Virus record (IMG/VR): IMGVR_UViG_3300026085_000093
Coordinates: 64,001-128,000 of that record
Reading direction: 5' to 3' (one strand)
Length of the DNA stretch: 64,000 nucleotides
Origin: a virus
Lineage: Duplodnaviria > Caudoviricetes
Shown piece by piece: positions 14 to 55,060 of the stretch (positions are counted from its first letter, which is position 1; each line of letters opens with the position of its first letter). The translations under genes and the position numbers were made by a program. The notes beneath the pieces are model-generated. The model did not search any database. It saw only the letters and a list, made by a program, of their open reading frames with translations, and had not been told where the DNA came from.

Positions 14-673
14 TTGATACCAATTGTAATATCTCACGGAAGTGGAGGCATTGGTAATTGTGAGTATAAACTTAAAAAAGAATTTGAAGAATTGGGGCAC
101 GAAGTAATCTTAAATGATTACTTCACTCCTCACGGTATAAATTGCTTGTATTGGACATTAGAAGATGAACACGATGTAACACTACAAGAAATGATATACG
201 ACATACCTTTTCCTGAAGAGTGTATACACATTGGGCTTAGTTTAGGCGGCTATTTAGGATTAGTGCATTCAGAAAAGTTTGTTCGTAATCATATATTTTA
301 TCCAGGTATGCTAGGTTTTACAAAGGAAGATTTATCAAAAGATTATTCAAACACCACTGTCTACAGTGCAGAATTAGACAATTGGTGTGACAACATTACT
401 GAATTTTGCGATCAAGCAAAAAACATCAGCCACATAAGGCTTGCAAACTGTTATCACGGCTTTATGAACAAAAATAATTCATTTGAAGTTATTAAGCCAA
501 TAATTCCATTAGAAGAAGATACTAGACAAAATACATTTAACATGTCAAAAACCATACAAAAATATCCGTACAAAGAAGAAAAAATTAGGTTGCAATATTC
601 TAAAAATGCGTATATAATGTGTATGAATATGATAAAGCATGACATAAATGAAAACACTAATAATATCACATGA
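14..673 (+). CDS. alpha/beta-hydrolase (dienelactone hydrolase-like)
   Basis: SHGSGG oxyanion-type motif, G-L-S-L-G nucleophile elbow, FYPG and C-terminal YHGF. TTG start directly follows an in-frame TAA (11-13), so an upstream gene probably ends at the window edge. Confidence 0.7.
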   Translation: MIPIVISHGSGGIGNCEYKLKKEFEELGHEVILNDYFTPHGINCLYWTLEDEHDVTLQEMIYDIPFPEECIHIGLSLGGYLGLVHSEKFVRNHIFYPGMLGFTKEDLSKDYSNTTVYSAELDNWCDNITEFCDQAKNISHIRLANCYHGFMNKNNSFEVIKPIIPLEEDTRQNTFNMSKTIQKYPYKEEKIRLQYSKNAYIMCMNMIKHDINENTNNIT

Positions 674-1967
674 ACGAAGTTTAAACAAGTGCGAAGGACT
701 TGTCACGGCATTAGGAAAAAATTGTAGTATTGTAACTGATTTTGACCCTGCGCCCGATCATAAACATTTTATAGATCTACCACAAGAAGTTTTTATTTGT
801 AAAGGATTTGACATTCTCGACATTACAAAACGCTTTCATCATGTAGACAGAATTTATACTATTAGTGAAAACTTACTTCCTATTCAAGCACAACTAGAAT
901 CATTTTACGGCATTAAAAATATCAGTGCATTTGCAGCAGAAGTCTTAAGCAACAAACAGAAGTTTGACGACTTCTGTAGACAAATTGGTATGGATACATT
1001 AGTACCCAAAAGTATTACTCCTACTTTTTACAACCAACTCAAAACATTTAAAAACAAAGAAATGTTTAGTAAGCCAGACATTGGTACAGGAAGTAACGTT
1101 TTTTATCCAGGTGACGATGCAAGCAATCCTGTAATAGAATATAGAAGATGGAATAACATGCATCATTTCTTGGATCATATTAAATCTAAGAATATACACA
1201 ATGAATTTTTTGATTTTAACAGACAAGGTATACATGCACAACGTTTTAATTTTAAACCTTGTAAAATTATGTTTCAAGAATACATATGGAGTGAAGAACC
1301 TAGCATTAGTCCTTACGGCTATGTGAAAGATGGTAGAGTAAACATTGCATTCTATGTAAAAAATAGTAAGATAAAATATGGCGACAAATTAGATCATAAT
1401 AGCAATCCAATCGAAAGTCATAGTAAAAGTAAAAAAAGTGATATTGTTAGGGAACGTGCTGTATGGATTGTAACAGCAGACGAAGTTCCTGTAGACTTTC
1501 CGAAACTATGTCAATTCTTTTTACAAACTATTGTAGACAAACTAGCAATCAAGGATATGTTTTTTGCAGGTCCTGACTTTCATTTTAATAAAGGTAGAAA
1601 AGTTGCAATTGACTTTAATCCACGACCAGGACAATTTGTTAACATATTAGACAGATTGAATGATGGCAAAATTATTAGTAATATGTTGCAAGGAAAAGAA
1701 ATAAATTTACAAAAAAGATTATTGTGGGGATGTGCTGTATTAGAACCTGGAAAAGTTAAAGAGGTAAAAGACTTAGAAAATATTTCACCTTATTTGAATA
1801 AACAAAATACAGAAATAAAAAAGGGTATACGTATTCCAGAATTTCAAAATCTACAAGACAAAAATTTTAATGTAAATTTAGATATTACAGGAACAAATGA
1901 ACAAGAATTATTTGATAATTATATTTCTGTAAATAATTCATTAAGAGCAAATATATTGGTCGAGTAA
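648..1967 (+). CDS. ATP-grasp domain protein (amide ligase-like)
   Basis: SNKQKFDDFCRQIG (cf. DK..M), KPDIGTGS loop, FQEYI and DFNPRPG (cf. ExNxR). Confidence 0.75.
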   Translation: MKTLIISHERSLNKCEGLVTALGKNCSIVTDFDPAPDHKHFIDLPQEVFICKGFDILDITKRFHHVDRIYTISENLLPIQAQLESFYGIKNISAFAAEVLSNKQKFDDFCRQIGMDTLVPKSITPTFYNQLKTFKNKEMFSKPDIGTGSNVFYPGDDASNPVIEYRRWNNMHHFLDHIKSKNIHNEFFDFNRQGIHAQRFNFKPCKIMFQEYIWSEEPSISPYGYVKDGRVNIAFYVKNSKIKYGDKLDHNSNPIESHSKSKKSDIVRERAVWIVTADEVPVDFPKLCQFFLQTIVDKLAIKDMFFAGPDFHFNKGRKVAIDFNPRPGQFVNILDRLNDGKIISNMLQGKEINLQKRLLWGCAVLEPGKVKEVKDLENISPYLNKQNTEIKKGIRIPEFQNLQDKNFNVNLDITGTNEQELFDNYISVNNSLRANILVE

Positions 1968-2582
1968 AGCTTTAAAGCAGTCTGTATCAAACTTTAAACA
2001 CACTACAAGCATAATACAATCATCAACTGTGCTGAAAACAGTGTGTCTTTTATTAGCATTAAAGTAAAACAAATTACTATCATCATACTGTGGTATTGTA
2101 TCTTCATAAACAAATTTTAAAAAGTGTTTATTACAATTATGTACAAAACCAATTAATCGTATTTCATCGTAATCATATGTTGTTTTATTAATATCATAGT
2201 GTTCAGGAAAAAACCCACCTTCATCTAATTTTAAAAAATGACAGCGTCCTAGCCATGGTTTAAAAGGTTCTAAAATACTTTGTAATGTAGGACTAGCCTC
2301 ATATACAGGTGTAGGCTTATCTATGTCATGATTGGTAATATTAGTATTATATTTTTTATTATATTCTGAAAGACTATCTAAATCAGGAATACCAGAAAGT
2401 CCGCCATCTAAACTAGTAACACTTAATCCCCATCTATTGTTTGGTTTTCTAGTGTTATATGGCTTCCAATCATCTTTGAATGGTGCAATTTCTTCCATAA
2501 GTTTGTCATGATTAAAAATATCTAATTCTAACCAATCTCCCATCATAGATAATCGTTGCATTGCAATTAATTGTTCGTTCAT
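1941..2582 (-). CDS. 2OG-Fe(II) oxygenase, aspartyl/asparaginyl beta-hydroxylase-like
   Basis: FFPEHYD (HxD) and distal HTVF. Start moved from the track's 2594 to ATG 2582, which overlaps the upstream stop (ATGA). Confidence 0.7.
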   Translation of the reverse strand: MNEQLIAMQRLSMMGDWLELDIFNHDKLMEEIAPFKDDWKPYNTRKPNNRWGLSVTSLDGGLSGIPDLDSLSEYNKKYNTNITNHDIDKPTPVYEASPTLQSILEPFKPWLGRCHFLKLDEGGFFPEHYDINKTTYDYDEIRLIGFVHNCNKHFLKFVYEDTIPQYDDSNLFYFNANKRHTVFSTVDDCIMLVVCLKFDTDCFKALLDQYICS

Positions 2583-3100
2583 ATCACTTCCCAAATATTT
2601 TGCTTCGTATAGAAGACTTCTACATCTTTTTCAACTAATTTACATAATCCTTGCGGAATAAAAACTTTTTCAACAACTTTATTTGTTCTAAAACTGTTTG
2701 GACTTTTATCAACTTCGCTATTTGTTGTAAAAACTATTCTTTTAGCATCTTTGCTTTTCGCATACTCAATTTGATAAGGAAGTATATGACCCCAATTAAA
2801 ATCATTATGCATCTTTTTGATACTTCCTGGTGCTTTTCCTCTGTATTCTTTAAGTGTTGCAGTGCGCAAACAAACTCTGTAACTATCTGGTATATAATCG
2901 TCAAAAGCGTGGCAGCCGCTTATGCTAACAATTTTATTGTCAACCCAAGTACACCACCACGCTTCATCTTTCCATTTGCCGAACTTCATAGACGCCTCTG
3001 AAACATTATTTTCTAATCCTTGTTCGGCACACGACTTCATAAAGTCATATATCTCACTAGGTAGATTGTCTACATAAAGGCGTCTAATTTCGAAGTTCAT
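2579..3100 (-). CDS. GNAT-like acyltransferase
   Basis: IVSISGC strand followed by RTATLKEYRG, resembling GNAT motif A. Confidence 0.5.
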   Translation of the reverse strand: MNFEIRRLYVDNLPSEIYDFMKSCAEQGLENNVSEASMKFGKWKDEAWWCTWVDNKIVSISGCHAFDDYIPDSYRVCLRTATLKEYRGKAPGSIKKMHNDFNWGHILPYQIEYAKSKDAKRIVFTTNSEVDKSPNSFRTNKVVEKVFIPQGLCKLVEKDVEVFYTKQNIWEVI

Positions 3101-3864
3101 TGTGAAAAGTTTACTACTGCTTCTTCAAACATGGCTAGATTCTCTGGCGTGCCGCCAACATAAGTTGTTGTACCAGAAAATTTGTCTTGCCATTCTGGTG
3201 TCATAGATAGATTACCTACGATAGCACGAAGTTCTGTTGTAGTGTTGTTGTCTAACAAAACCGTGTTAATTGCATCAACAAAGCGGAAACCTAGATCACC
3301 TGCTTGGCTAAATGCAAAACATGTTGTATTGGCATCTTCTTCAATAGCAGATTGTCTAGTTGTAATAGTAAAGACTGTATCTGCATCACCTGCAAGATAC
3401 CCTTTTGTTGTACTACCGCTGCCTCCGAATGGTACCACTATAAACTTTGCACCAGTTGTTTGTTCTAGGTTACCTAAGAATTTTGCTACTGGCGCACTTC
3501 CCCATGTTGCAATTTTAACTTCTTTTCCGTTAAGATCTTCTAGTGTTGTAAATTCTCTACTACACATCATAGTTTCATATGTCATTAGAGCAACAAGTGT
3601 GTCTTCACTTACTTCTACTGATGGCATTTTAGGATCTCCAGGCCATTCACTACTCCAAATAGTAAGTGCATTGCCTTTTGCTAAATAGGTTGATGCTGTT
3701 ACAGGATTATTTGCTTGTACAAATTGATGATCAATTTTGTTTCCAATTTCAGTTAATACTTGTCTAAAAGCACCTTCTTCTGAACCTGGATTTACAATTA
3801 AAATTTCTGCGTTTGCAGATGTTGCAATAAACATTGCTGTTAGTGCTGTGATAAATTTTTTCAT
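3097..3864 (-). CDS. tctC: TctC/Bug-like periplasmic substrate-binding protein
   Basis: Signal peptide MKKFITALTAMFIATSANA; VPFGGSGSTTKGYLAGDAD resembles Bug/TctC VPYKGG...LLGG.VD; adjacent to tctA; AGGAG SD upstream. Confidence 0.65.
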   Translation of the reverse strand: MKKFITALTAMFIATSANAEILIVNPGSEEGAFRQVLTEIGNKIDHQFVQANNPVTASTYLAKGNALTIWSSEWPGDPKMPSVEVSEDTLVALMTYETMMCSREFTTLEDLNGKEVKIATWGSAPVAKFLGNLEQTTGAKFIVVPFGGSGSTTKGYLAGDADTVFTITTRQSAIEEDANTTCFAFSQAGDLGFRFVDAINTVLLDNNTTTELRAIVGNLSMTPEWQDKFSGTTTYVGGTPENLAMFEEAVVNFSQ

Positions 3865-3872
3865 TTTTTCTC

Positions 3873-5162
3873 CTAAGATAATATTATAACAGTCCTTACA
3901 AAACTTTCATAGAACAAGTCACTAAGGAAATATCCATAAATGACTGGGCTCGTATCGTAATTTCGTAGAAAATATCCTAGTACCATTGCAATCAGTATAC
4001 ATGCTATCATCCATTCGTGTATAGGAAAGATAACAACACTTATTACACTTATAGTAGTTAGGATCAATGTATTTGCATATACTCTATATTGCTTATAAAG
4101 ATACACTATTTGACCTAACAGATTAAAACCATACCAACTTAAAAGTAAACATATCAATGTCACTACAGGTATAAAGTAAAGTATAGAAGACAGTTTGTTT
4201 ACTGTGTTTTCTATATTAAATTGATAACCACTTTCTAACATCAAGTAGTATACAATTACTTCACTACCCGTAATAGGTATAGCAAGGATTAGCAAAGGCA
4301 ACAAACTAGATAATGCTCCGCTATTGTTAGCAGCCTCTGCGGCAGCAATGCTTTTAAGTACAGGCTTTTTAAAAAAGCGTTTTACAATGCCTGCACTAGC
4401 ATAACTACCAAGAATATTTGTTATGCCAGGAATAAGACCGCACCAAAATCCAATAAAGCTACCTAACAGGCTTGGACCAAATGTGCCTTTTCCTATTGCA
4501 TACTTACTTATCTTGCTAGGTTGGGAAATAGAAATGTTATGAATTTTTAGTATCTCAGGAAACAGATATAATCCAATCATTACACTTGCAAAAGGTATTC
4601 CTAAACTAAGATAAAAATTGTTAAAAACAAGAAACTGATCAAATGTAATTGGATCAATTCCTTGATGTGATATTAATCCTCCAAAACAAAACAGTAATAA
4701 TGTCAAAAGTTTATTCTGTTTTGTAAAAAATGTAATCATACATATTGCAACTAGTATTACAATTGTTTGTATAATACTGTTATAAAATTTGAATACATGC
4801 ATAATACTAGGCAAGGCAACTAAAAACAAACACATTGCAAATGCTACACCAACGGTGCTACTAATTGCGTTACTTGTTACAGCAAGGCCGCCTGCGCCTT
4901 TTTGAAACATTTTATGTCCGTATCTTGCTGTGCTAATTGCAGTAGCATCTCCGGGTATACCGTATAAGATTGCTGTAACACTATTAGTATAGTTAGTAGT
5001 AATAAGTATAGCAACATAACACGCCATAATATTAACCGCACTAGTTGACGCTAAAAACGGGTATAAGACACCAATAGCAACAAATGGACCAGCACCAGGT
5101 ACTAAACCGGCTAAAAGACCAGTTAGTAAACCGATACCACTCCAAATTCCTAATTCAATCAT
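3873..5162 (-). CDS. tctA: tripartite tricarboxylate transporter large permease TctA
   Basis: Multi-pass hydrophobic protein with GLVPGAG, AILYGIPGDATA...GHKM..KG, GLIPG and AAAEAANNSG..SSLLPLL.LAIP.TG motifs typical of TctA. Confidence 0.85.
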   Translation of the reverse strand: MIELGIWSGIGLLTGLLAGLVPGAGPFVAIGVLYPFLASTSAVNIMACYVAILITTNYTNSVTAILYGIPGDATAISTARYGHKMFQKGAGGLAVTSNAISSTVGVAFAMCLFLVALPSIMHVFKFYNSIIQTIVILVAICMITFFTKQNKLLTLLLFCFGGLISHQGIDPITFDQFLVFNNFYLSLGIPFASVMIGLYLFPEILKIHNISISQPSKISKYAIGKGTFGPSLLGSFIGFWCGLIPGITNILGSYASAGIVKRFFKKPVLKSIAAAEAANNSGALSSLLPLLILAIPITGSEVIVYYLMLESGYQFNIENTVNKLSSILYFIPVVTLICLLLSWYGFNLLGQIVYLYKQYRVYANTLILTTISVISVVIFPIHEWMIACILIAMVLGYFLRNYDTSPVIYGYFLSDLFYESFVRTVIILS

Positions 5163-6114
5163 TAACTATTATTTTTCTATCAACTACGCTGTTTGGTGTA
5201 ATCATTTCTTTATCGTTGTTGCTAATTTTACAACACATTTCTCTGCATACTTCAGGACATTTACCCCAAGTTAACAAGTTACTAAAGTTTAAAAATTTAT
5301 CTTTAATACTATCTAAACCTTCTGATATGTGTCCTAGAGAACTTATGTCGTTATCTATCCAACAACAAGGATAATAGTTACCTTGAGAATTTATATAATG
5401 CATATCGCCAGTATAACAGAAGGGTGCTAATTCGTCAAGTGTTTCTCTTTTTACATAGTCGAACCATTCTGGATTATAATAGTCTTTAATTTGACCATTA
5501 TTCGACATGTCATCATGTATAGTCCAACTTTTTTTAATTTTAAATTCATTCATGCCTATTTTTTTACTTAAGGCTATTGCTTCTTCAACTTGATGATGAT
5601 TGTGTTCAAAAACAATATACTTCCATCTAATCTGACATTTGCGTTTAGTAGTTGCTATAAGTTCAAAAAGTTCTTGTATTTTGTTCCAATTGCTGTTAAC
5701 TCGGTATATGCTATTAGTGTCTTGCAGTCCATCGATGCTAAGTTCAACAATACTAGACTCGGGCCATGTTTCTAGTACTCTTTGCCAAAACTCTTTTGTT
5801 TGCATACCGTTTGTTGTAACTTGCAATTCATTTGCCGAGAAAAAATGTTCTGAAATTTTGTGGAAATCAGGATGATATATAGGATCTCCTAAATTGCCTT
5901 GAAAAAATATGTAATCATATTTTTCAGGATTGGGCAAAAAATTTAGTAGCAAATCACTATCAATGTCTGACTTAGAACCAGGCCCGTGCATAGTTCTAAT
6001 ACATGCAGGACATGCTAATGGACATCTGTTGGTTAGTTCAATGTGCCAGCCTGTATATTTAAACTCGTCCAAAGGCCCATCTACGTTCATAACACCACCA
6101 ACATTCTGTTTCAC
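5155..6114 (-). CDS. radical SAM protein with C-terminal SPASM/twitch domain
   Basis: CPLACPAC (CxxxCxxC), GNLGDP, SIDG, C-terminal FC...YPCCW...C..VC..MC. True start possibly ATG 6090. Confidence 0.9.
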   Translation of the reverse strand: MKQNVGGVMNVDGPLDEFKYTGWHIELTNRCPLACPACIRTMHGPGSKSDIDSDLLLNFLPNPEKYDYIFFQGNLGDPIYHPDFHKISEHFFSANELQVTTNGMQTKEFWQRVLETWPESSIVELSIDGLQDTNSIYRVNSNWNKIQELFELIATTKRKCQIRWKYIVFEHNHHQVEEAIALSKKIGMNEFKIKKSWTIHDDMSNNGQIKDYYNPEWFDYVKRETLDELAPFCYTGDMHYINSQGNYYPCCWIDNDISSLGHISEGLDSIKDKFLNFSNLLTWGKCPEVCREMCCKISNNDKEMITPNSVVDRKIIVND

Positions 6115-10055: not shown

Positions 10056-11054
10056 TTACCTTTCTATACTAAACACTGCAAAATTATTATCTATACTACA
10101 AGGATTATAAACTTTACAATCTATTTTAAATTCAAATTCTAAAACATTTTTTAATTTGGATACGTCATGATAATTTACAGCATTTCCTAACTTGTTTTTT
10201 AGTTCTTTGTTGTTATAATCAAATACACTAAAAACAACTTTTTTATTTGTAATTTTAAGAATATTTGACATTATATGCATTATAGTGTCGTGATCACAAC
10301 TGGTAAAAACACTGTTAACAAATGTAAAGTCATGTGGACTGACTTTTGGAAATTCCAAAAGAGCATATCCTGTTTTATTATAGTATTTGTTGTACCTATT
10401 CCAATGTATAAAATTATGCTCAGGATAAATTTCTTTACCTAATTTAATTGCTTTTTCATTTACATCTATACATGTGTATTGTGCTATAGGTACATAGTAT
10501 AATAAATTACCTGCTGCGCCTCCAATATCTAAAACACTACCTTGTCCTTTAAAATAATGTTGGAATACTTTACCTTGCTTTGCAGTTCCAATTTTTTGCT
10601 TTGTTGTTTTTGTTATTGGATAGACACTTATAAATTTGTCTAATTTTTCTTCTGGATAATTTTTATAATAATCTCCTTTTTCATATAACATACGCTGTTT
10701 CAACATAAATTCTTTTTTATTATGAATTATTATACACTGAAAGGGATTATTATCTTTTATTCCTTTAATAGGTGCAGTGTAGAAAAAAACTTTACTAGGA
10801 TCGTTAGCCCTTGCTTTATATATTTTTTCCATTATTATTTCTTTGTCTACATCTTGTCCAAGATACACTACACCCATTTCTTTAGAAGAATCCCAATCTT
10901 GAATAACATCAAAATTAGAACTACCATCTAAAAATTGTATTTGATTTTTAACACGTGAAGTTTTTGCAAATGGACAAGCATTTTTTGGTTCAACACTAGT
11001 TTTGCTCCATTGTAAAAAATCATGCACAAAAGAATCAAATAATTTAGTCGACAT
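10056..11054 (-). CDS. CPFA-domain (DUF1415-like) fused to class I methyltransferase
   Basis: N-terminal W...CPFA domain homologous to 17908-18390; C-terminal VLDIGGAAG, CIDVN, NSVFT. Confidence 0.7.
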   Translation of the reverse strand: MSTKLFDSFVHDFLQWSKTSVEPKNACPFAKTSRVKNQIQFLDGSSNFDVIQDWDSSKEMGVVYLGQDVDKEIIMEKIYKARANDPSKVFFYTAPIKGIKDNNPFQCIIIHNKKEFMLKQRMLYEKGDYYKNYPEEKLDKFISVYPITKTTKQKIGTAKQGKVFQHYFKGQGSVLDIGGAAGNLLYYVPIAQYTCIDVNEKAIKLGKEIYPEHNFIHWNRYNKYYNKTGYALLEFPKVSPHDFTFVNSVFTSCDHDTIMHIMSNILKITNKKVVFSVFDYNNKELKNKLGNAVNYHDVSKLKNVLEFEFKIDCKVYNPCSIDNNFAVFSIER

Positions 11055-11535
11055 AAAATATCTCGTTATTTTTAAAATCTCTATCTCTTACATTTCTAAA
11101 TGGCTCGTAAAAACTTACACTTAAAACAATTCTATCATGTTCTGTTTTATTTGTAACACCATGAAACTGTCTTGTATTAAGTAACGCTACTTCTTCTCCA
11201 TTAAATCTTTCAATTTCGTCATCAAAATCATCTACAAAAATATTATAACTATTTTCAAAATCTCCTGTGACAGGAAAATTTAATGCACATAATCTATTAT
11301 GATCTCTATGTATAGGCAAACCGCCCCAATGAATCTTACTAAAAAACATTCTTTTGACGTGTTGCCCGGTGAAGTCTTGCAGGGCTTCTGACCATTCACA
11401 TTTAGGAACTCTCGATTCTTCTACAGGCCAAAGAATGCCTGCTTTGTCTTGACCTCTTTCAAAATTGCATTCTAATGCTGTTTTTAATACATCTTTTTTT
11501 GGCCAAACTATATCGTACTTGTAATAATATCTCAT
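11044..11535 (-). CDS. cupin/2OG-Fe(II) oxygenase-like protein
   Basis: LPIHRD (HxD), ALNFP, FHGV..R; paralog of the neighbour. Confidence 0.6.
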   Translation of the reverse strand: MRYYYKYDIVWPKKDVLKTALECNFERGQDKAGILWPVEESRVPKCEWSEALQDFTGQHVKRMFFSKIHWGGLPIHRDHNRLCALNFPVTGDFENSYNIFVDDFDDEIERFNGEEVALLNTRQFHGVTNKTEHDRIVLSVSFYEPFRNVRDRDFKNNEIFYVD

Positions 11536-12173
11536 AAAAATTTGATCCTTTTATTCTTTTCGTTTTGTTCCCAGTTAATAATACTACCGTCTAACATCCC
11601 TTGTTCTATTTCAGAATAACTATTATGGCGCCAACAACTTGTAATAATAACTCTGTCCTCATCTGCATCATTATCTACTCCATGTATTTCTGGACCTTTA
11701 AACATCCATGGAGCAAATTCATTAGTTTTTTCGCTGACACTGTAAGGCATTACATATTTTTTAGTGCTTCTATCAAAATCTTCATAAAATGTTTGCGGAC
11801 TTACATCTTCAAACTTTCCACGCACAGCAAAGTTAAGAACAGCAGGTCTGTTTCTGTCTTGATGCGGTGGTGTGCCTCCTATAGGCGTGCTTGTGTATAA
11901 CATTGTGTCAGGTGTAATAGCAGGCTTAAACAACATTGCAAGTTCATAATGAAACTCGCTCCATTTATAGTTTTTACATTCTAATCTTGGATTAAACGCT
12001 TCATGCACTGTCCATCTAATATGGCCGCAATCAAATTGATACCAATCTTCATTATCAATATTTTCTAAATGATCTAGCAAATATTCTCTATCGTACCAAA
12101 GTGTCGGAAGTTCACGACAGTACGGTGTTGATTTTGTCTCTTCCGAGAACATCGACTTTGTCTCTTGCGTCAT
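11532..12173 (-). CDS. cupin/2OG-Fe(II) oxygenase-like protein
   Basis: PPHQD, VLNFA, IHGV..R. The track starts at 12209; ATG 12173 has an AGGTGG SD. Confidence 0.6.
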   Translation of the reverse strand: MTQETKSMFSEETKSTPYCRELPTLWYDREYLLDHLENIDNEDWYQFDCGHIRWTVHEAFNPRLECKNYKWSEFHYELAMLFKPAITPDTMLYTSTPIGGTPPHQDRNRPAVLNFAVRGKFEDVSPQTFYEDFDRSTKKYVMPYSVSEKTNEFAPWMFKGPEIHGVDNDADEDRVIITSCWRHNSYSEIEQGMLDGSIINWEQNEKNKRIKFL

Positions 12174-12699
12174 CGTTCCACCTTTCATAATTTGTTTGTA
12201 TAATTTCAAAATACTTTATCATTGTATCTGCATCTGTTACTTGAAAACAGGTCATAGGGTTGTGTGTAAAATCTTCGTACTTCATATGTTTCATAATCAA
12301 ATTATCGATTACCATCGCATATCTATGACTACGCTTTTCTCCTAAACCTTCTCTGCTCATATCTTCTGCCATTCCTATAGTTTCTGCCCATTTGCCTGTA
12401 GGATCTGGCAACGCTTGTATATTTTGCAAACCATCGTTTTTAATCCATGCACGTTGTACATATGTGTCATCTATACTTGTAAACCAAATTTCGTCTAAAC
12501 CTAGTTCTTTAAATCTATCATAATAAAAATCATAAGTTCTTGCTTGACTTGCAGCGTATTCGACTAAAAATAATCCAGGTAAACCTAACAACAATATTTT
12601 TTTGTTTTCAAATAATTCGTACGTATCAATCCACCGTGTTGTTGTACCAACTTTGTGCATAGTCTTTATGTTAGGTATTTTATCTCCTACTCTAATCAT
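12112..12699 (-). CDS. Prx5-type peroxiredoxin (redoxin) homolog lacking the peroxidatic Cys
   Basis: VGDKIP, GLPG.F, S.DD.YV..AW, LPD..G, RS.RYAMVID match Prx5, but PGAFTPTC is replaced by PGLFLVEY. Confidence 0.8.
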   Translation of the reverse strand: MIRVGDKIPNIKTMHKVGTTTRWIDTYELFENKKILLLGLPGLFLVEYAASQARTYDFYYDRFKELGLDEIWFTSIDDTYVQRAWIKNDGLQNIQALPDPTGKWAETIGMAEDMSREGLGEKRSHRYAMVIDNLIMKHMKYEDFTHNPMTCFQVTDADTMIKYFEIIQTNYERWNDDARDKVDVLGRDKINTVLS

Positions 12700-14545
12700 T
12701 AATTTCCTCCGTAGATTTTAAAAAACATCTTTTACTTTTACGTCCATACCAAAATAAATGTCTTGCATGATCTGTTATACTATGATATACATTTGGCTTA
12801 ACCGAAACACTTGTGTTTACATCTTTTAATGGCTTGCTATCAAAAAACCAACTGTGCCAATTTTTTGTAAATGTTTCTACATTCCTTTTTTTACCATATA
12901 AATCTAAAATGTGTTTGTTAAATTTTAGTGCTTCTTCAACATCAACATTGTATTTTGCTAAACAAAGCATTTTAATTTGTTTGTAAAAATCATCTATATT
13001 TTTATAAAGTGTTGCAGCAGTAGCACCATTGTCTTGAAAGTGGAAATCGTCGCCTCCTTCAATAGGTCTGCCCCATGTTTTCATATTAAACAAACTACTC
13101 TTTAAACTATTTGTATGATCTTCATATTCTTTATTAAACACAGTACCACTATTTTTACTCCAATCAAATAATAATTTGTAAAATTCAATTAATGGTATGT
13201 CATGTTCTCTTTGCAAATATGTTGCAACTACTTGTGATACTCCATGATAATGATGCGGAATAACAATGCCTTTTGCAAAGAAATACATATCTATATAATC
13301 TTGAGTCGTAAAACTATTGCTTTGGTGACAGACAAAATCAATTTCTCCTTCGCTTGCGTCAGGATATGTATTACCGCCTGCAGGTGCAGGTGTTGGCACA
13401 TATTTTAATCCGTATTTGTCTTTATACTCCTCTTTTGCAAAAGGTGTGTTAGGAACAATACTTAGAGGGTGTACAGTTAAAGCATGATCACTACCTAGTT
13501 CGAGTATTTTTCCTATACCTTCTATCCAACTGTCTAGTGTTTCTTCTGGCAAGCCAACTATGAGTTCGCAATAATTATCAACACCTGCTGCATTGTATTC
13601 TCCTACCATTTCCTCTAATTTAGTATTAGCAATGTTGATACGCTTAATAGCTTTAAGAGTATCAGGATTCATACTTTGTAATGCAATTGTTACACCACGT
13701 TTTATATTTGCTTCTTGATTTAATATACGTCCTAATTCTACAATGCGTTTAGGTTGTTGTTTTGCAGTGCTGTAATCTATCTGTCTAGGAAATCCTGTCG
13801 CTTTTCGACAATGTGCAATGTATTTTATAAAATCAACATCTCTGTCAAATATGCCTACATTACTATCTGCAAAATACAAAAAGTCAATATTATGATCAAC
13901 TACCCAATCTATTTCTCTTATAACTCTAGCGTATTCAAATTTTGCAATTTTATTATAATACAATGCTTCTTGATCACAAAATGTGCAAGCATATGGGCAA
14001 CCTCTGTTAGTTTCAATGATTGCACTATATTGTCTGTCAGGCTTCATGAGGCTATCCATTAGCCCGCTTAGATAAGGACTAGGAATGTCTGTAATGTCTT
14101 TATCTGGTTTAGGAGGTATATAACTTTCTACAGTCATAATACCAGGTGCATCTAAATTACCCTTTAATATTTCTGCAAAAGTTCTTTCTCCTGCATAGGT
14201 AACAATAACATCACAGATGTCTTTGTTTTTTGAAAGCCATGTTTGATCGTATGGCACTTGTGGGCCTCCCATTACAATCAAACAATTAGGAAATTTGTTT
14301 TTTACTGCTCGTGCAAGTTCTTGGCTAATATTCCAATTCCAAACATATGTGCTAATTGCAAATACATCAGGATCGTTTATATTCTCCATATAATTTTCTA
14401 CAGTGTCACGTTCGAATATAATGTCACCCAGTTCCCAACCTTCAACATTAGCCCTACAGTATTCCCATACATAAGCAACACTGAGAGGCAGAAAAGTTGC
14501 TTCAGCAATAACATTATTAATTTGAGTGAAATATACTTTCTTCAT
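12692..14545 (-). CDS. cobalamin-binding radical SAM protein (class B methylase-like)
   Basis: N-terminal B12-binding-type domain (LPLSVAY...ISTYVWN...MGGPQ), ETNRGCPYACTFC, ELIVGLPEE. Confidence 0.9.
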   Translation of the reverse strand: MKKVYFTQINNVIAEATFLPLSVAYVWEYCRANVEGWELGDIIFERDTVENYMENINDPDVFAISTYVWNWNISQELARAVKNKFPNCLIVMGGPQVPYDQTWLSKNKDICDVIVTYAGERTFAEILKGNLDAPGIMTVESYIPPKPDKDITDIPSPYLSGLMDSLMKPDRQYSAIIETNRGCPYACTFCDQEALYYNKIAKFEYARVIREIDWVVDHNIDFLYFADSNVGIFDRDVDFIKYIAHCRKATGFPRQIDYSTAKQQPKRIVELGRILNQEANIKRGVTIALQSMNPDTLKAIKRINIANTKLEEMVGEYNAAGVDNYCELIVGLPEETLDSWIEGIGKILELGSDHALTVHPLSIVPNTPFAKEEYKDKYGLKYVPTPAPAGGNTYPDASEGEIDFVCHQSNSFTTQDYIDMYFFAKGIVIPHHYHGVSQVVATYLQREHDIPLIEFYKLLFDWSKNSGTVFNKEYEDHTNSLKSSLFNMKTWGRPIEGGDDFHFQDNGATAATLYKNIDDFYKQIKMLCLAKYNVDVEEALKFNKHILDLYGKKRNVETFTKNWHSWFFDSKPLKDVNTSVSVKPNVYHSITDHARHLFWYGRKSKRCFLKSTEEIND

Positions 14546-54133: not shown

Positions 54134-54145
54134 ACTGTACTTATA
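54134..54145 (-). promoter_or_regulatory. putative late promoter TATAAGTACAGT
   Basis: One mismatch to TAAATACAGT, directly before the AGGAG SD of 54122. Confidence 0.4.
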
Positions 54146-55028
54146 AGGTAGAAACGTTAGCGTATGTTGGAGTCGGAACTGACACATATGAACCCGTTGC
54201 CCTTAGTTGAGAAACACTCGAAGTAATATCTGCAATAACTGCTTCGTCTACCCCACCTGCACCGATCGCAGGAATACCGTCATAAAATTCAACCTTAAAT
54301 CTTAAAACTTTATCACTGTCTGCTTTAGCTTTAATTGAGTAACTATTGCTTGCATAAACACCAGAACCTGATTTAGTAAAAATTGTTTGGTATACAGTAT
54401 TTAGATCAAAATTTCCAACTGATGATCCAGGTGAAGATGCAGTAGTTTGCGATCTATCCATAGCAACTGTTCCTACTGCTGACATCATTGATGCCCAATC
54501 AGAAGACTTTGAGCCAGATGCATTAGTAACTGTTGTATTAACTCTAATTTGGCCGCCTGCATTAAAAAATGCACGTCTATGATTTGCATCAGTAAATGTG
54601 ACTGTAAATTCGTGTGTAATTGTTTCTCTAGATGAAATGTCTCCCCAAGGACTAGAACTACCTCTTGAAGATGAAACTTTTGATTCTACACTTGCTTGAG
54701 TAGAAGCATACAAATCATCTTTGTTTAGATATATGTAGTTTCCAATTGTTTCGTATTCTAAATATACAGCATCTGTAATGTCATCTGCGACGTTAACTGT
54801 AGTTAGGGGTGTAGGCGATGCGCCAGTTTGGTGAACATAAGCATCTGTTAAATCTGATTTTAATGCCGACATATGTACTTCATTTACAGTACCGGATCCG
54901 CTTGAAACTGGAGCACTAGTTACAGTATTGTTATATCCAAATCTGCCTGTTCCAACACCTAAAACTTGTTCAACTTGAGACTGAATTGCATTGTAACGTG
55001 CTGCTGATATTACTGATCCTACTGCCAT
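54141..55028 (-). CDS. putative virion structural protein
   Basis: Paralog of 52875-54122; lies in the fibre gene block; AGGAG SD and TATAAATA upstream. Confidence 0.7.
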   Translation of the reverse strand: MAVGSVISAARYNAIQSQVEQVLGVGTGRFGYNNTVTSAPVSSGSGTVNEVHMSALKSDLTDAYVHQTGASPTPLTTVNVADDITDAVYLEYETIGNYIYLNKDDLYASTQASVESKVSSSRGSSSPWGDISSRETITHEFTVTFTDANHRRAFFNAGGQIRVNTTVTNASGSKSSDWASMMSAVGTVAMDRSQTTASSPGSSVGNFDLNTVYQTIFTKSGSGVYASNSYSIKAKADSDKVLRFKVEFYDGIPAIGAGGVDEAVIADITSSVSQLRATGSYVSVPTPTYANVSTL

Positions 55029-55048: not shown

Positions 55049-55060
55049 AGTATATTTATA
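55049..55060 (-). promoter_or_regulatory. putative T4-type late promoter TATAAATA(TACT)
   Basis: Exact TATAAATA (55060-55053) about 25 nt upstream of the ATG at 55028. Confidence 0.55.

What the first reader, a model, noticed from the sequence alone, without database searches (positions are those of the whole stretch)
3097..5162. Phage-encoded TctA/TctC tricarboxylate transporter without TctB
Seen: a clear TctA permease (429 aa) and a signal-peptide-bearing TctC-like binding protein sit adjacent at the distal end of the array, with no small TctB between or beside them. Established: TTT systems import citrate and other carboxylates and normally have three parts. Inference: uptake of 2-oxoglutarate, citrate or Fe-citrate could supply the eight 2OG-Fe(II) enzymes or the large Fe-S demand. 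A two-component or host-TctB-borrowing phage transporter would be unusual.
Basis: partly seen in the sequence, partly recalled or inferred. Interest (0 to 1): 0.7.

Follow-up and report, generated by a model that had tools for sequence, protein, structure and literature searches.

The report
Two-part phage solute importer, no TctB
An uncultured marine T4-like jumbo phage, like at least 58 sequence variants in other viral contigs, carries a membrane permease of the TctA family next to a shrunken, previously unrecognisable TctC-type binding protein and no third (TctB) subunit, always beside a ligase gene, which suggests these phages bring their own minimal uptake system for one specific small molecule.

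Summary
Window 3873-5162 (-) encodes a 429-aa TctA permease (PF01970, E 7e-57). Window 3097-3864 (-) encodes a secreted 255-aa protein.

The 255-aa protein matches no Pfam, NCBIfam or PHROG model, TctC included. Its model (pLDDT 92) fits solved TctC/Bug proteins best: Z 15.2-17.7, against 12 or less for other binding proteins. A profile chain through 270-300-aa phage relatives also reaches Salmonella TctC.

No TctB was found. The Pfam model found none in this record or in five related records, two of them rated complete. A membrane-helix scan also found none, yet it found TctB in 6 of 6 bacterial loci.

The pair is routine in related phages. All 66 binding-protein loci and all 71 TctA loci with enough flank hold both genes, in three gene orders. 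An ATP-grasp ligase (window 648-1967, +) sits beside the binding-protein gene in 78 of 80 loci, and an aspartyl-hydroxylase-like cupin abuts TctA in two of the three orders. Eighteen relatives add a TonB-dependent receptor.

Best reading (0.62): a minimal two-part TTT-type importer that feeds a phage ligase pathway. This is a new variant of a known kind. Viral tctA itself was already reported.

The parts
3873..5162 (-). TctA-family permease, 429 aa (P0002). It is about 75 residues shorter than bacterial TctA. Both copies of the family's glycine signature are present: G11-x3-G15-x3-G19-x2-P22-G23-x-G25 and G234-x3-G238-x3-G242-x2-P245-G246.
   Evidence: PF01970 at E 7e-57. hhalign to Salmonella TctA gives E 6.7e-31 and covers residues 17-458 of 504. 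The signature motif is as quoted in PMC5812351.
3097..3864 (-). Secreted 255-aa solute-binding protein (P0001), about 236 aa when mature. It is a short, divergent TctC/Bug-type class II binding protein. Two cysteines are invariant (C101, C182).
   Evidence: Model pLDDT 92. Foldseek's top 12 hits are TctC/Bug chains. VIA-align gives Z 17.7, 16.2, 16.2 and 15.2 to 4x9t, 8hk9, 7ndr and 2qpq, against 12 or less for other families. The Atlas gives TM 0.77-0.79 to bacterial PF03401 clusters. Profile chain. No Pfam hit.
3808..3864 (-). Signal peptide of the binding protein (residues 1-19), with cleavage expected after A-N-A.
   Evidence: Read from the translation. The N-terminal pattern is kept across the family alignment. 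No program for signal peptides was run.
648..1967 (+). ATP-grasp ligase, 439 aa (P0219), convergent with the transporter genes. It is the third conserved member of the module.
   Evidence: Model pLDDT 85. The best solved matches are the L-amino-acid ligases RizA, BL00235 and YwfE/BacD, then PurD, PurK and PurT. Atlas features point to ATP-grasp_4. It lies next to the binding-protein gene in 78 of 80 viral loci.
1941..2594 (-). Aspartyl/asparaginyl-hydroxylase-like cupin, 217 aa (P0004), with an H-x-D ... H pattern (PEHYD ... KRHTV). It is the fourth recurrent member of the module.
   Evidence: The Atlas structure search gives TM 0.70-0.71 to PF05118 clusters. The DNA matches a gene of Pelagibacter phage Mosig annotated as Asp_Arg_Hydrox. 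Homologues abut TctA (0-6 bases apart, 60 in one locus) in gene orders II and III. No Pfam hit of its own.
2579..3100 (-). 173-aa soluble protein of unknown family (P0003), inserted between the binding protein and the cupin. In the closest relatives the same interval is present, but its ORF was not compared.
   Evidence: No Pfam, NCBIfam or PHROG family. No membrane helix. In L024-L027 the interval between the binding-protein gene and the cupin has the same size. In the other loci of order I the ligase gene follows the binding-protein gene directly.
5155..6114 (-). Radical SAM/SPASM-type enzyme, 319 aa. It is the upstream neighbour, and its end overlaps the TctA start codon.
   Evidence: PF04055 at E 6.6e-6. 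NCBIfam radical SAM maturase models down to E 1e-15, and phrog_21308. Coordinates.

Best explanation

Proposed mechanism during infection:
1. The 429-aa TctA is inserted into the host inner membrane.
2. The binding protein (236 aa when mature) is exported by the Sec pathway to the periplasm.
3. The binding protein captures one specific small solute. A carboxylate-bearing compound such as an amino acid, organic acid or sugar acid is most likely, as for other TctC proteins. It hands the solute to TctA, which moves it inward using an ion gradient.
4. In the cytoplasm the co-inherited ATP-grasp ligase, and probably the aspartyl-hydroxylase-like cupin, use the solute. This feeds the phage's large radical SAM, methyltransferase and sugar tailoring array.
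5. The scaffold role proposed for TctB is either dispensable for this short TctA or replaced, for instance by pairing of two TctA molecules.

Shown: gene identity, folds, absence of TctB, strict co-occurrence, and presence in RNA libraries.
Inferred: direction of transport, contact between the two proteins, the link to the ligase, and the substrate class.
For: Identity of the two proteins:
- TctA is identified by PF01970, and both signature motifs are invariant in 37 relatives.
- The binding protein's fold matches TctC/Bug structures best, and they stand 3 to 6 Z units above all other binding-protein families.
- The only sequence-level match to a solved structure is the TctC-family protein TphC. 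It is weak (E 0.25) and aligns the conserved strand-turn-helix loop VVPF-GGSGSTT with VIPYKGTAP.
- hhalign links the family to a second tier of phage proteins at E 5.9e-36, and that tier to Salmonella TctC at E 3.7e-5.

Linkage:
- TctA is found in all 66 binding-protein loci with enough flank, and the binding protein in all 71 TctA loci with enough flank. There are 58 distinct binding-protein sequences and three gene orders.
- Linkage kept through rearrangement argues for a shared function.
- A distant TctA-then-binding-protein pair also occurs in a 570-kb contig bearing Gp23 and in a 57-kb phage contig.

Absence of TctB:
- PF07331 gave no match in this record or in five related records, two of them rated 100% complete.
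- The same model finds TctB in a bacterial MAG.
- My helix scan finds a 143-186-aa ORF with 4-5 helices beside TctA in 6 of 6 bacterial loci. It finds none beside TctA in this window.
- In the viral loci the only small multi-helix ORFs near TctA are DUF6580 genes in a minority and a few scattered ORFs.

Conservation:
- 29 invariant columns in the binding protein across sequences only 39-95% identical to it point to one ligand.

Complex prediction: weak support.
- Score 0.38, best of 3 controls 0.00.
- The mark was reached by 58 of 80 solved complexes and 2 of 110 mismatched pairs. At 0.60 or under it was reached by only 7 of those 80 and by both mismatches that passed.
- The runs agree in at least 65% of contacts, and the partner's pLDDT is at least 79.

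RNA libraries:
- Contigs from four metatranscriptome runs, 95-99% identical, cover TctA.
- One contig of 2109 bases spans 2688-4787, across the binding-protein gene and both of its junctions.

Ligase: fold evidence.
Against: - No model in Pfam, NCBIfam or PHROGs recognises the binding protein. A direct profile comparison with Salmonella TctC is not significant, so homology rests on fold and on an intermediate family.
- No transport, binding or expression experiment exists.
- TctB is poorly conserved. Published searches with it have failed (PMC5812351), so a very divergent or host-supplied TctB cannot be excluded.
- This record is only 66% complete.
- The work on TRAP transporters cited in that review found the small subunit essential, so a two-part system may not work alone.
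- The complex prediction is only a weak pass.
- RNA-library contigs can come from carried-over DNA.
- The ligase link is by gene neighbourhood only, and one locus (L083) has other genes in that place.
Confidence: 0.62

Rival explanations
1. Host-assisted three-part system. The phage supplies TctA and a new binding protein, but the complex still needs a TctB made by the host. The phage would then re-aim an existing host transporter scaffold at a new substrate.
For: - TTT systems are common in marine bacteria. SAR11, for example, carries several TctCBA versions (PMC11796062; PMC13712998).
- A modelling preprint places the TctB subunit (BctB) beside the scaffold domain of BctA as a stabiliser (10.64898/2026.07.27.740893).
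- The phage TctA lacks about 46 residues at the C-terminal end, where that scaffold domain lies.
Against: - The phage TctA is at most 31% identical to the TctA proteins of 400 sampled Pseudomonadota. Fitting a poorly conserved host TctB (27% mean identity within the family) would therefore be surprising.
- The module is kept in phages with very different genomes, and probably different hosts.
- The host is unknown.
Confidence: 0.13
2. The two proteins do not work as a pair. TctA would act alone as a carrier, as proposed for archaeal TctA. The secreted protein would have another periplasmic task: feeding a host transporter as cyanophage PstS is thought to do, sensing, or blocking a receptor.
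For: - Archaea have TctA without TctB or TctC (Winnen et al. 2003, as reviewed in PMC5812351).
- Orphan TctC proteins far outnumber TctA in many bacteria (same review).
- The complex prediction is only a weak pass.
Against: - The two genes co-occur strictly in both directions, and stay linked through three gene orders.
- The distant pairs in L105 and L106 keep the same TctA-then-binding-protein order.
- The complex controls scored 0.00 against 0.38.
Confidence: 0.12
3. One reading: the system imports citrate, Fe-citrate or 2-oxoglutarate to supply the many Fe-S and 2OG-Fe(II) enzymes of the array.
For: - The array does hold several radical SAM enzymes, one of them B12-binding, and aspartyl-hydroxylase-like cupins.
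- The TctC homologue BctC binds citrate chelated with Zn or Ni (preprint).
- In 18 relatives a TonB-dependent receptor, the class that takes up iron chelates among other things, sits directly upstream of TctA.
Against: - Nothing in the data identifies the ligand.
- The constant companions are a ligase and a hydroxylase, which suggests a building block rather than a cofactor.
- The distant pairs have neither the ligase nor the cupin next to them, and the Pfam families listed around them show no radical SAM array.
- The invariant residues include three Trp and three acidic residues (W70, W74, W121, E73, D160, D197), and no invariant Arg or Lys. Their place in the cleft was not checked on the model, and TctC proteins bind carboxylates largely through backbone and water, so this is only a weak hint.
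Confidence: 0.1
4. Export rather than import: TctA releases a product of the tailoring array.
For: The pair sits at the end of a long biosynthetic array.
Against: Every binding-protein-dependent secondary transporter characterised so far is an importer (my own knowledge; the review PMC5812351 describes them as uptake systems). A secreted high-affinity binding protein, and an outer-membrane receptor in relatives, make sense only for uptake.
Confidence: 0.03

Closest known systems
[quoted passage not shown]
   Same: - A TctA-family permease with both glycine signature motifs.
- A periplasmic class II binding protein whose nearest structures are TctC/Bug proteins.
- Adjacent genes.
   Different: - No TctB.
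- TctA is about 75 residues shorter (429 against 495-550 aa) and at most 31% identical to sampled bacterial TctA.
- The binding protein is about 60 residues shorter and falls below every family model.
- Gene order is A then C, not C-B-A.
- It is encoded by phages and was found in no cellular genome, apart from two probably mis-binned contigs.
Archaeal and orphan bacterial TctA (Winnen et al. 2003; reviewed in PMC5812351)
   Same: TctA without TctB.
   Different: Those lack a TctC as well. Here a dedicated binding protein is strictly linked to TctA.
Viral tctA noted as an auxiliary metabolic gene (SUP05 viruses, PMC4164917; review PMC6359870; a myovirus scaffold, PMC8115048)
   Same: TctA-domain genes on marine viral contigs, with unknown role.
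   Different: The passages I read in those papers (text searches for 'TctA' and 'tricarboxylate') report a domain hit or 'tricarboxylate transport' only. They mention no binding protein, no missing TctB and no ligase link. Whether their genes belong to this same clade was not tested.
Cyanophage PstS, a phage-encoded phosphate-binding protein thought to work with the host's own Pst transporter (recalled from my own knowledge, not checked here)
   Same: A phage-encoded periplasmic binding protein for nutrient uptake during infection.
   Different: PstS relies on the host's membrane transporter. Here the phage also brings the permease, and in some relatives an outer-membrane receptor too.

Membership tests
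TTT transporter (TC 2.A.80) | TctA-family permease (PF01970) with the duplicated G-Hy3-G-Hy3-G-Hy2-P-G-Hy-G motif | tested here: met
   PF01970 at E 7e-57, 193 bits against a cut-off of 28.9. Both motifs were read in the sequence and are invariant in the family. hhalign to Salmonella TctA gives E 6.7e-31.
TTT transporter (TC 2.A.80) | TctC-type periplasmic binding protein recognised by PF03401 | tested here: not met
   No PF03401 match at E up to 10 for the protein or anywhere in the record. The fold-level test is given in a separate row.
TTT transporter (TC 2.A.80) | Small membrane subunit TctB with 4-5 helices (PF07331) | tested here: not met
   No match in this record or in five related records, two of them rated complete. 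No small multi-helix ORF lies beside TctA in the window. In the viral loci only DUF6580 genes in a minority and a few scattered ORFs lie nearby. Both methods find TctB in bacterial controls. A very divergent or host-encoded TctB is not excluded.
TTT transporter (TC 2.A.80) | Ion-gradient-driven uptake of a carboxylate that depends on the binding protein | not testable with these tools
   Needs uptake assays.
Bug/TctC binding-protein family | Class II periplasmic-binding fold closest to solved TctC/Bug structures | tested here: met
   VIA-align gives Z 17.7 (4x9t; rmsd 3.1 over 238 residues), 16.2 (8hk9, 7ndr) and 15.2 (2qpq), against 12 or less for other families. Foldseek's top 12 are TctC/Bug chains. 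The Atlas gives TM 0.77-0.79 to PF03401 clusters.
Bug/TctC binding-protein family | Sequence homology to TctC | tested here: inconclusive
   The direct comparison is not significant. The transitive link is supported: hhalign E 5.9e-36 to the second-tier phage family, and that family to Salmonella TctC at E 3.7e-5, probability 71%. Two of ten second-tier proteins reach PF03401 below threshold. The profile's only match among solved structures is TphC at E 0.25.
Bug/TctC binding-protein family | Two strand-turn-helix 'pincer' loops that hold the ligand's carboxylate through water (Huvent et al. 2006; recalled from my own knowledge) | tested here: inconclusive
   Glycine-rich loops N25-PGSEEG-31 and G147-GSGSTT-153 align with the corresponding TctC loops, and are nearly invariant. 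Their geometry and water sites were not examined.
ATP-grasp ligases (for the linked gene at 648-1967) | ATP-grasp fold | tested here: met
   Model pLDDT 85. Foldseek E 6.5e-17 to RizA, followed by other L-amino-acid ligases and PurD, PurK and PurT. No Pfam hit at E 0.01.

The most novel reading that the evidence does not exclude
A clade of marine T4-like phages encodes a self-sufficient import route for one specific precursor. It consists of a TctB-independent TctA with a miniature TctC, and in some members a TonB-dependent outer-membrane receptor as well. The cargo would be joined by a phage ATP-grasp ligase into a phage-made metabolite or modification. This would be the first natural two-part TTT system. 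It would show that TctB is dispensable, and it would offer a small, tractable model for a transporter family whose mechanism is still unsolved.
Probability: 0.35. Interest if true: 0.75.

Novelty: new variant of a known kind. Interest (0 to 1): 0.6.

Why it matters
TTT transporters are abundant in bacteria but poorly understood. No membrane-part structure is reported in the papers I read, and they describe the role of TctB as unknown (PMC5812351; preprint 10.64898/2026.07.27.740893). A natural, strictly conserved system that does without TctB and uses the smallest TctC-like protein seen here would give a minimal model for binding-protein-dependent elevator transport.

For phage biology, it would mean that some marine phages do more than boost host uptake. 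They would install their own permease, binding protein and sometimes outer-membrane receptor to obtain a precursor for a large phage-encoded chemistry.

The binding protein also shows that a widespread viral family, invisible to Pfam, can be placed by fold. Finding its ligand would give a first handle on what the 60-kb tailoring array makes.

Tried and rejected
Searches that found nothing or little:
- Pfam, NCBIfam and PHROG scans of the binding protein and of P0003: nothing.
- tblastn of both proteins against 50,697 deposited phage genomes. The binding protein gave no hit. TctA gave only four weak hits (28-30% identity) to Salmonella- or E. coli-derived records, so no deposited phage record in that collection shows the pair.
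- A DNA search of the region found only a 200-base match to a cupin gene of Pelagibacter phage Mosig.
- A pattern scan of one genome for each of 185,579 species with the binding-protein alignment found only two phage-like contigs of one MAG and one spurious hit.
The TctA alignment retrieved only the close clade.
- Relatives cannot be drawn for a virus record.

Ideas tested and dropped:
- P0003 (2579-3100) as a hidden TctB: it is soluble.
- Other small multi-helix ORFs of the record as TctB: one is a Bax1-I family protein, and the rest match no family.
- DUF6580 as a TctB stand-in: it shows no similarity to Salmonella TctB, is absent from this record, and occurs in only 11 of 80 loci.

Uninformative:
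- Direct hhalign of the binding-protein family to Salmonella TctC was not significant.
- The promoter and terminator scan gave counts at chance level.
- No paper mentions DUF6580, and none describes a TctB-less TctA/TctC system.
- In the RNA libraries some parts of the stretch had no cover. This says nothing either way.
Full report
**What is there.** The window is bases 64001-128000 of a 236,366-base viral record rated 66% complete. The record carries a T4-type major capsid gene (Gp23, E 4e-102). Nearly all genes in the window lie on the minus strand in one tight array.

At the array's distal end the gene order on the minus strand is:
- a radical SAM/SPASM enzyme, 5155-6114
- TctA, 3873-5162
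- a secreted 255-aa protein, 3097-3864
- a 173-aa soluble protein, 2579-3100
- a 217-aa cupin, 1941-2594

A convergent 439-aa gene lies at 648-1967 on the plus strand. Starts and stops overlap, or lie 8 bases apart.

**The permease.** The 429-aa protein matches PF01970 at E 7e-57 over almost the whole model. Both copies of the family's glycine signature are present and invariant in 37 relatives. The motif is as quoted in PMC5812351.

A profile of the phage clade aligns with Salmonella TctA at E 6.7e-31 and 28% identity. It covers residues 17-458 of 504, so the phage form lacks about 16 residues at the start and 46 at the end. In 400 sampled Pseudomonadota genomes the TctA frames are about 495-550 aa or longer and at most 31% identical. 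The only closer hits lie in phage-like contigs of one MAG.

**The binding protein.** It has a typical signal peptide and no membrane helix. No model in Pfam, NCBIfam or PHROGs matches it, TctC included, even at E 10.

It has 95 clusters of relatives, 250-265 aa long, all from metagenomes. One was named TctC by JGI. An alignment of 48 of them has 29 invariant columns, including two cysteines.

Evidence that it is a TctC-type protein:
- The AlphaFold model is confident (pLDDT 92, pTM 0.85).
- Foldseek's first twelve solved matches are all TctC/Bug proteins.
- VIA-align gives Z 17.7 to a Polaromonas TctC (4x9t), 16.2 to two terephthalate-binding TctC proteins and 15.2 to Bug27. All other binding-protein families score 12 or less.
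- The Atlas independently places it beside viral clusters in which 35-51% of members carry PF03401. It also places it beside bacterial Bug/TctC clusters at TM 0.77-0.79.
- At sequence level, the family profile's only match among solved structures is TphC. The match is weak (E 0.25), on the conserved strand-turn-helix loop.
- An exhaustive profile search found a second tier of 270-300-aa proteins at E 5e-11 to 1e-4. Two of the ten scanned reach PF03401 just below threshold.
- hhalign links the two tiers at E 5.9e-36, and the second tier to Salmonella TctC at E 3.7e-5 over 241 columns. The direct comparison fails.

I conclude that this is a shortened, very divergent TctC-type protein. Fold membership is met. 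The curated family threshold is not.

**No TctB.**
- PF07331 finds nothing in this record or in five related viral records. Two of those are rated 100% complete, at 170,818 and 165,693 bases.
- The same model finds four TctB matches in a marine bacterial MAG.
- TctB is poorly conserved, so I also scanned for small ORFs with three or more hydrophobic helices.
- That scan finds a 143-186-aa ORF with 4-5 helices beside TctA in 6 of 6 bacterial loci.
- It finds none beside TctA in the window.
- In the 66 viral loci with TctA, the only such ORFs near TctA are DUF6580 genes in a minority and a few scattered ORFs.
- The small multi-helix ORFs elsewhere in the record are a Bax1-I protein and ORFs matching no family.

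**The pair is a conserved phage module.** A scan of IMG/VR with the binding-protein alignment returned 80 loci.
- TctA is present in all 66 loci where enough flank remains. The 14 without it are cut by a contig end on the side where TctA is expected.
- Conversely, 71 of 77 TctA loci hold the binding protein. The six others end within about 1.6 kb of TctA.
- Three gene orders occur. Here '>' marks a gene on the binding protein's strand and '<' a gene on the opposite strand:
  - Order I, 28 loci, as in the window: TctA> binding protein> <ligase.
  - Order II, 33 loci: binding protein> <ligase <TctA <cupin.
  - Order III, 5 loci: cupin> TctA> one gene> binding protein> <ligase.
- The 439-aa gene is next to the binding-protein gene in 78 of 80 loci. 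One further locus is cut, and one (L083) has other genes there.
- The cupin abuts TctA in orders II and III. In order I it lies 1.3-7 kb away. In the window it is P0004.
- More distant TctA-then-binding-protein pairs, without ligase or cupin, lie in a 570-kb contig bearing Gp23 and in a 57-kb phage contig.
- Among one genome for each of 185,579 species, the binding-protein family turned up only on two phage-like contigs of one MAG.
- No deposited phage record in the collection searched has the pair.

**The companions.**
- The 439-aa protein folds (pLDDT 85) as an ATP-grasp enzyme. Its nearest structures are the L-amino-acid ligases RizA, BL00235 and YwfE/BacD, followed by PurD, PurK and PurT. 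The Atlas agrees.
- The cupin resembles aspartyl/asparaginyl hydroxylases (TM 0.70-0.71) and keeps an H-x-D ... H pattern.
- In 18 order-I relatives a TonB-dependent receptor lies directly upstream of TctA, often with a DUF6580 membrane protein. This record has neither.
- Upstream in the window lie a B12-binding radical SAM enzyme, further radical SAM/SPASM enzymes, a methyltransferase and a second hydroxylase-like cupin.

**Do the two proteins touch, and are they expressed?**
- The complex prediction gave weak support. The score was 0.38 and the best of 3 controls 0.00.
- The mark was reached by 58 of 80 solved complexes and 2 of 110 mismatched pairs. At 0.60 or under it was reached by only 7 of those 80 and by both mismatches that passed.
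- The runs agree in at least 65% of contacts, and the partner's pLDDT is at least 79.
- Contigs from four metatranscriptome runs of four studies, 95-99% identical, cover TctA. One contig of 2109 bases runs from 2688 to 4787, across the binding-protein gene and both of its junctions. DNA carried over into RNA libraries is not excluded.

**Interpretation.** The best reading is a minimal two-part TTT-type importer (0.62). The permease and a dedicated periplasmic receptor are inherited together through rearrangements, and the ligase is their constant neighbour. The cargo is therefore probably a building block that the ligase joins to something else. TctC proteins bind carboxylates of many kinds, including amino acids, adipate, terephthalate, quinolinate, metal-citrate and alginate oligomers (titles and text). 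I therefore commit only to 'a carboxylate-bearing small molecule'.

A modelling preprint places the TctB subunit (BctB) beside the scaffold domain of BctA. The phage TctA is truncated at that end and has no TctB. It may pair with itself, or with a host protein; this is inference.

**What is known, and what is new.** Viral tctA has been listed as an auxiliary gene with unknown role (PMC4164917, PMC6359870, PMC8115048). TctA without TctB and TctC is known from archaea. I found no paper that describes TctA with TctC but without TctB, and none on this binding-protein family. The finding is therefore a new variant of a known kind. It is a phage-restricted, TctB-less TTT with a miniature binding protein and a fixed ligase partner.

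Other follow-up reports of this scan on the same genome describe it as a marine T4-like jumbo phage. That agrees with the Gp23 result here.

Noticed in passing
L002:2925-4691 and L002:2572-2964; also L036:6919-8706 and L034:7975-8493: In 18 of 80 related viral loci a TonB-dependent receptor (Plug plus barrel) lies directly upstream of TctA. It is often preceded by a DUF6580 small membrane protein (11 loci). In L034 the DUF6580 gene lies just upstream of TctA with no receptor gene between them. Together with the pair, this would be a phage-encoded uptake route through outer membrane, periplasm and inner membrane.
   Followed up: partly
window 55053-55060 (-): The T4 late-promoter core TATAAATA occurs once in the 64-kb window, against 13 expected by chance. 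The single copy lies 25 bases upstream of the ORF 54141-55028. The tailoring array, transporter genes included, has none.
   Followed up: no
L014 and L015 (contigs FZLS01000023.1 and FZLS01000099.1): The MAG 'Rhodobacteraceae bacterium Water_Bin34' holds two contigs with the phage module (binding protein, ATP-grasp, TctA, cupin). The coverages in the contig names differ (5.4 and 32.7). These are probably phage DNA binned with a bacterium.
   Followed up: partly
L105:6592-8882 and L106:6804-8894: A distant version of the pair (TctA of 447 and 393 aa as called, then a binding protein of 293 and 297 aa) lies in a 570-kb contig bearing Gp23 and in a 57-kb phage contig. Neither has the ligase, the cupin or a TctB-like ORF. 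TctB-less pairs may therefore be general in phages.
   Followed up: partly
window 12692-14545 (-), 11044-11535 (-), 12112-12699 (-): A B12-binding radical SAM enzyme, a second aspartyl-hydroxylase-like cupin and a redoxin-like protein lie a few genes upstream of the transporter. Relatives keep the B12-radical-SAM and methyltransferase genes upstream as well.
   Followed up: no
window 2579-3100 (-): A 173-aa soluble protein with no family match lies between the binding protein and the cupin. The same interval exists in the four closest relatives (L024-L027), though its ORF was not compared. In other order-I relatives the ligase gene follows the binding-protein gene directly.
   Followed up: partly
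G000:C1:7650-8336 (+), outside the window: The phage record encodes a 228-aa Bax1-I family membrane protein (PF01027, E 2.6e-53).
   Followed up: no
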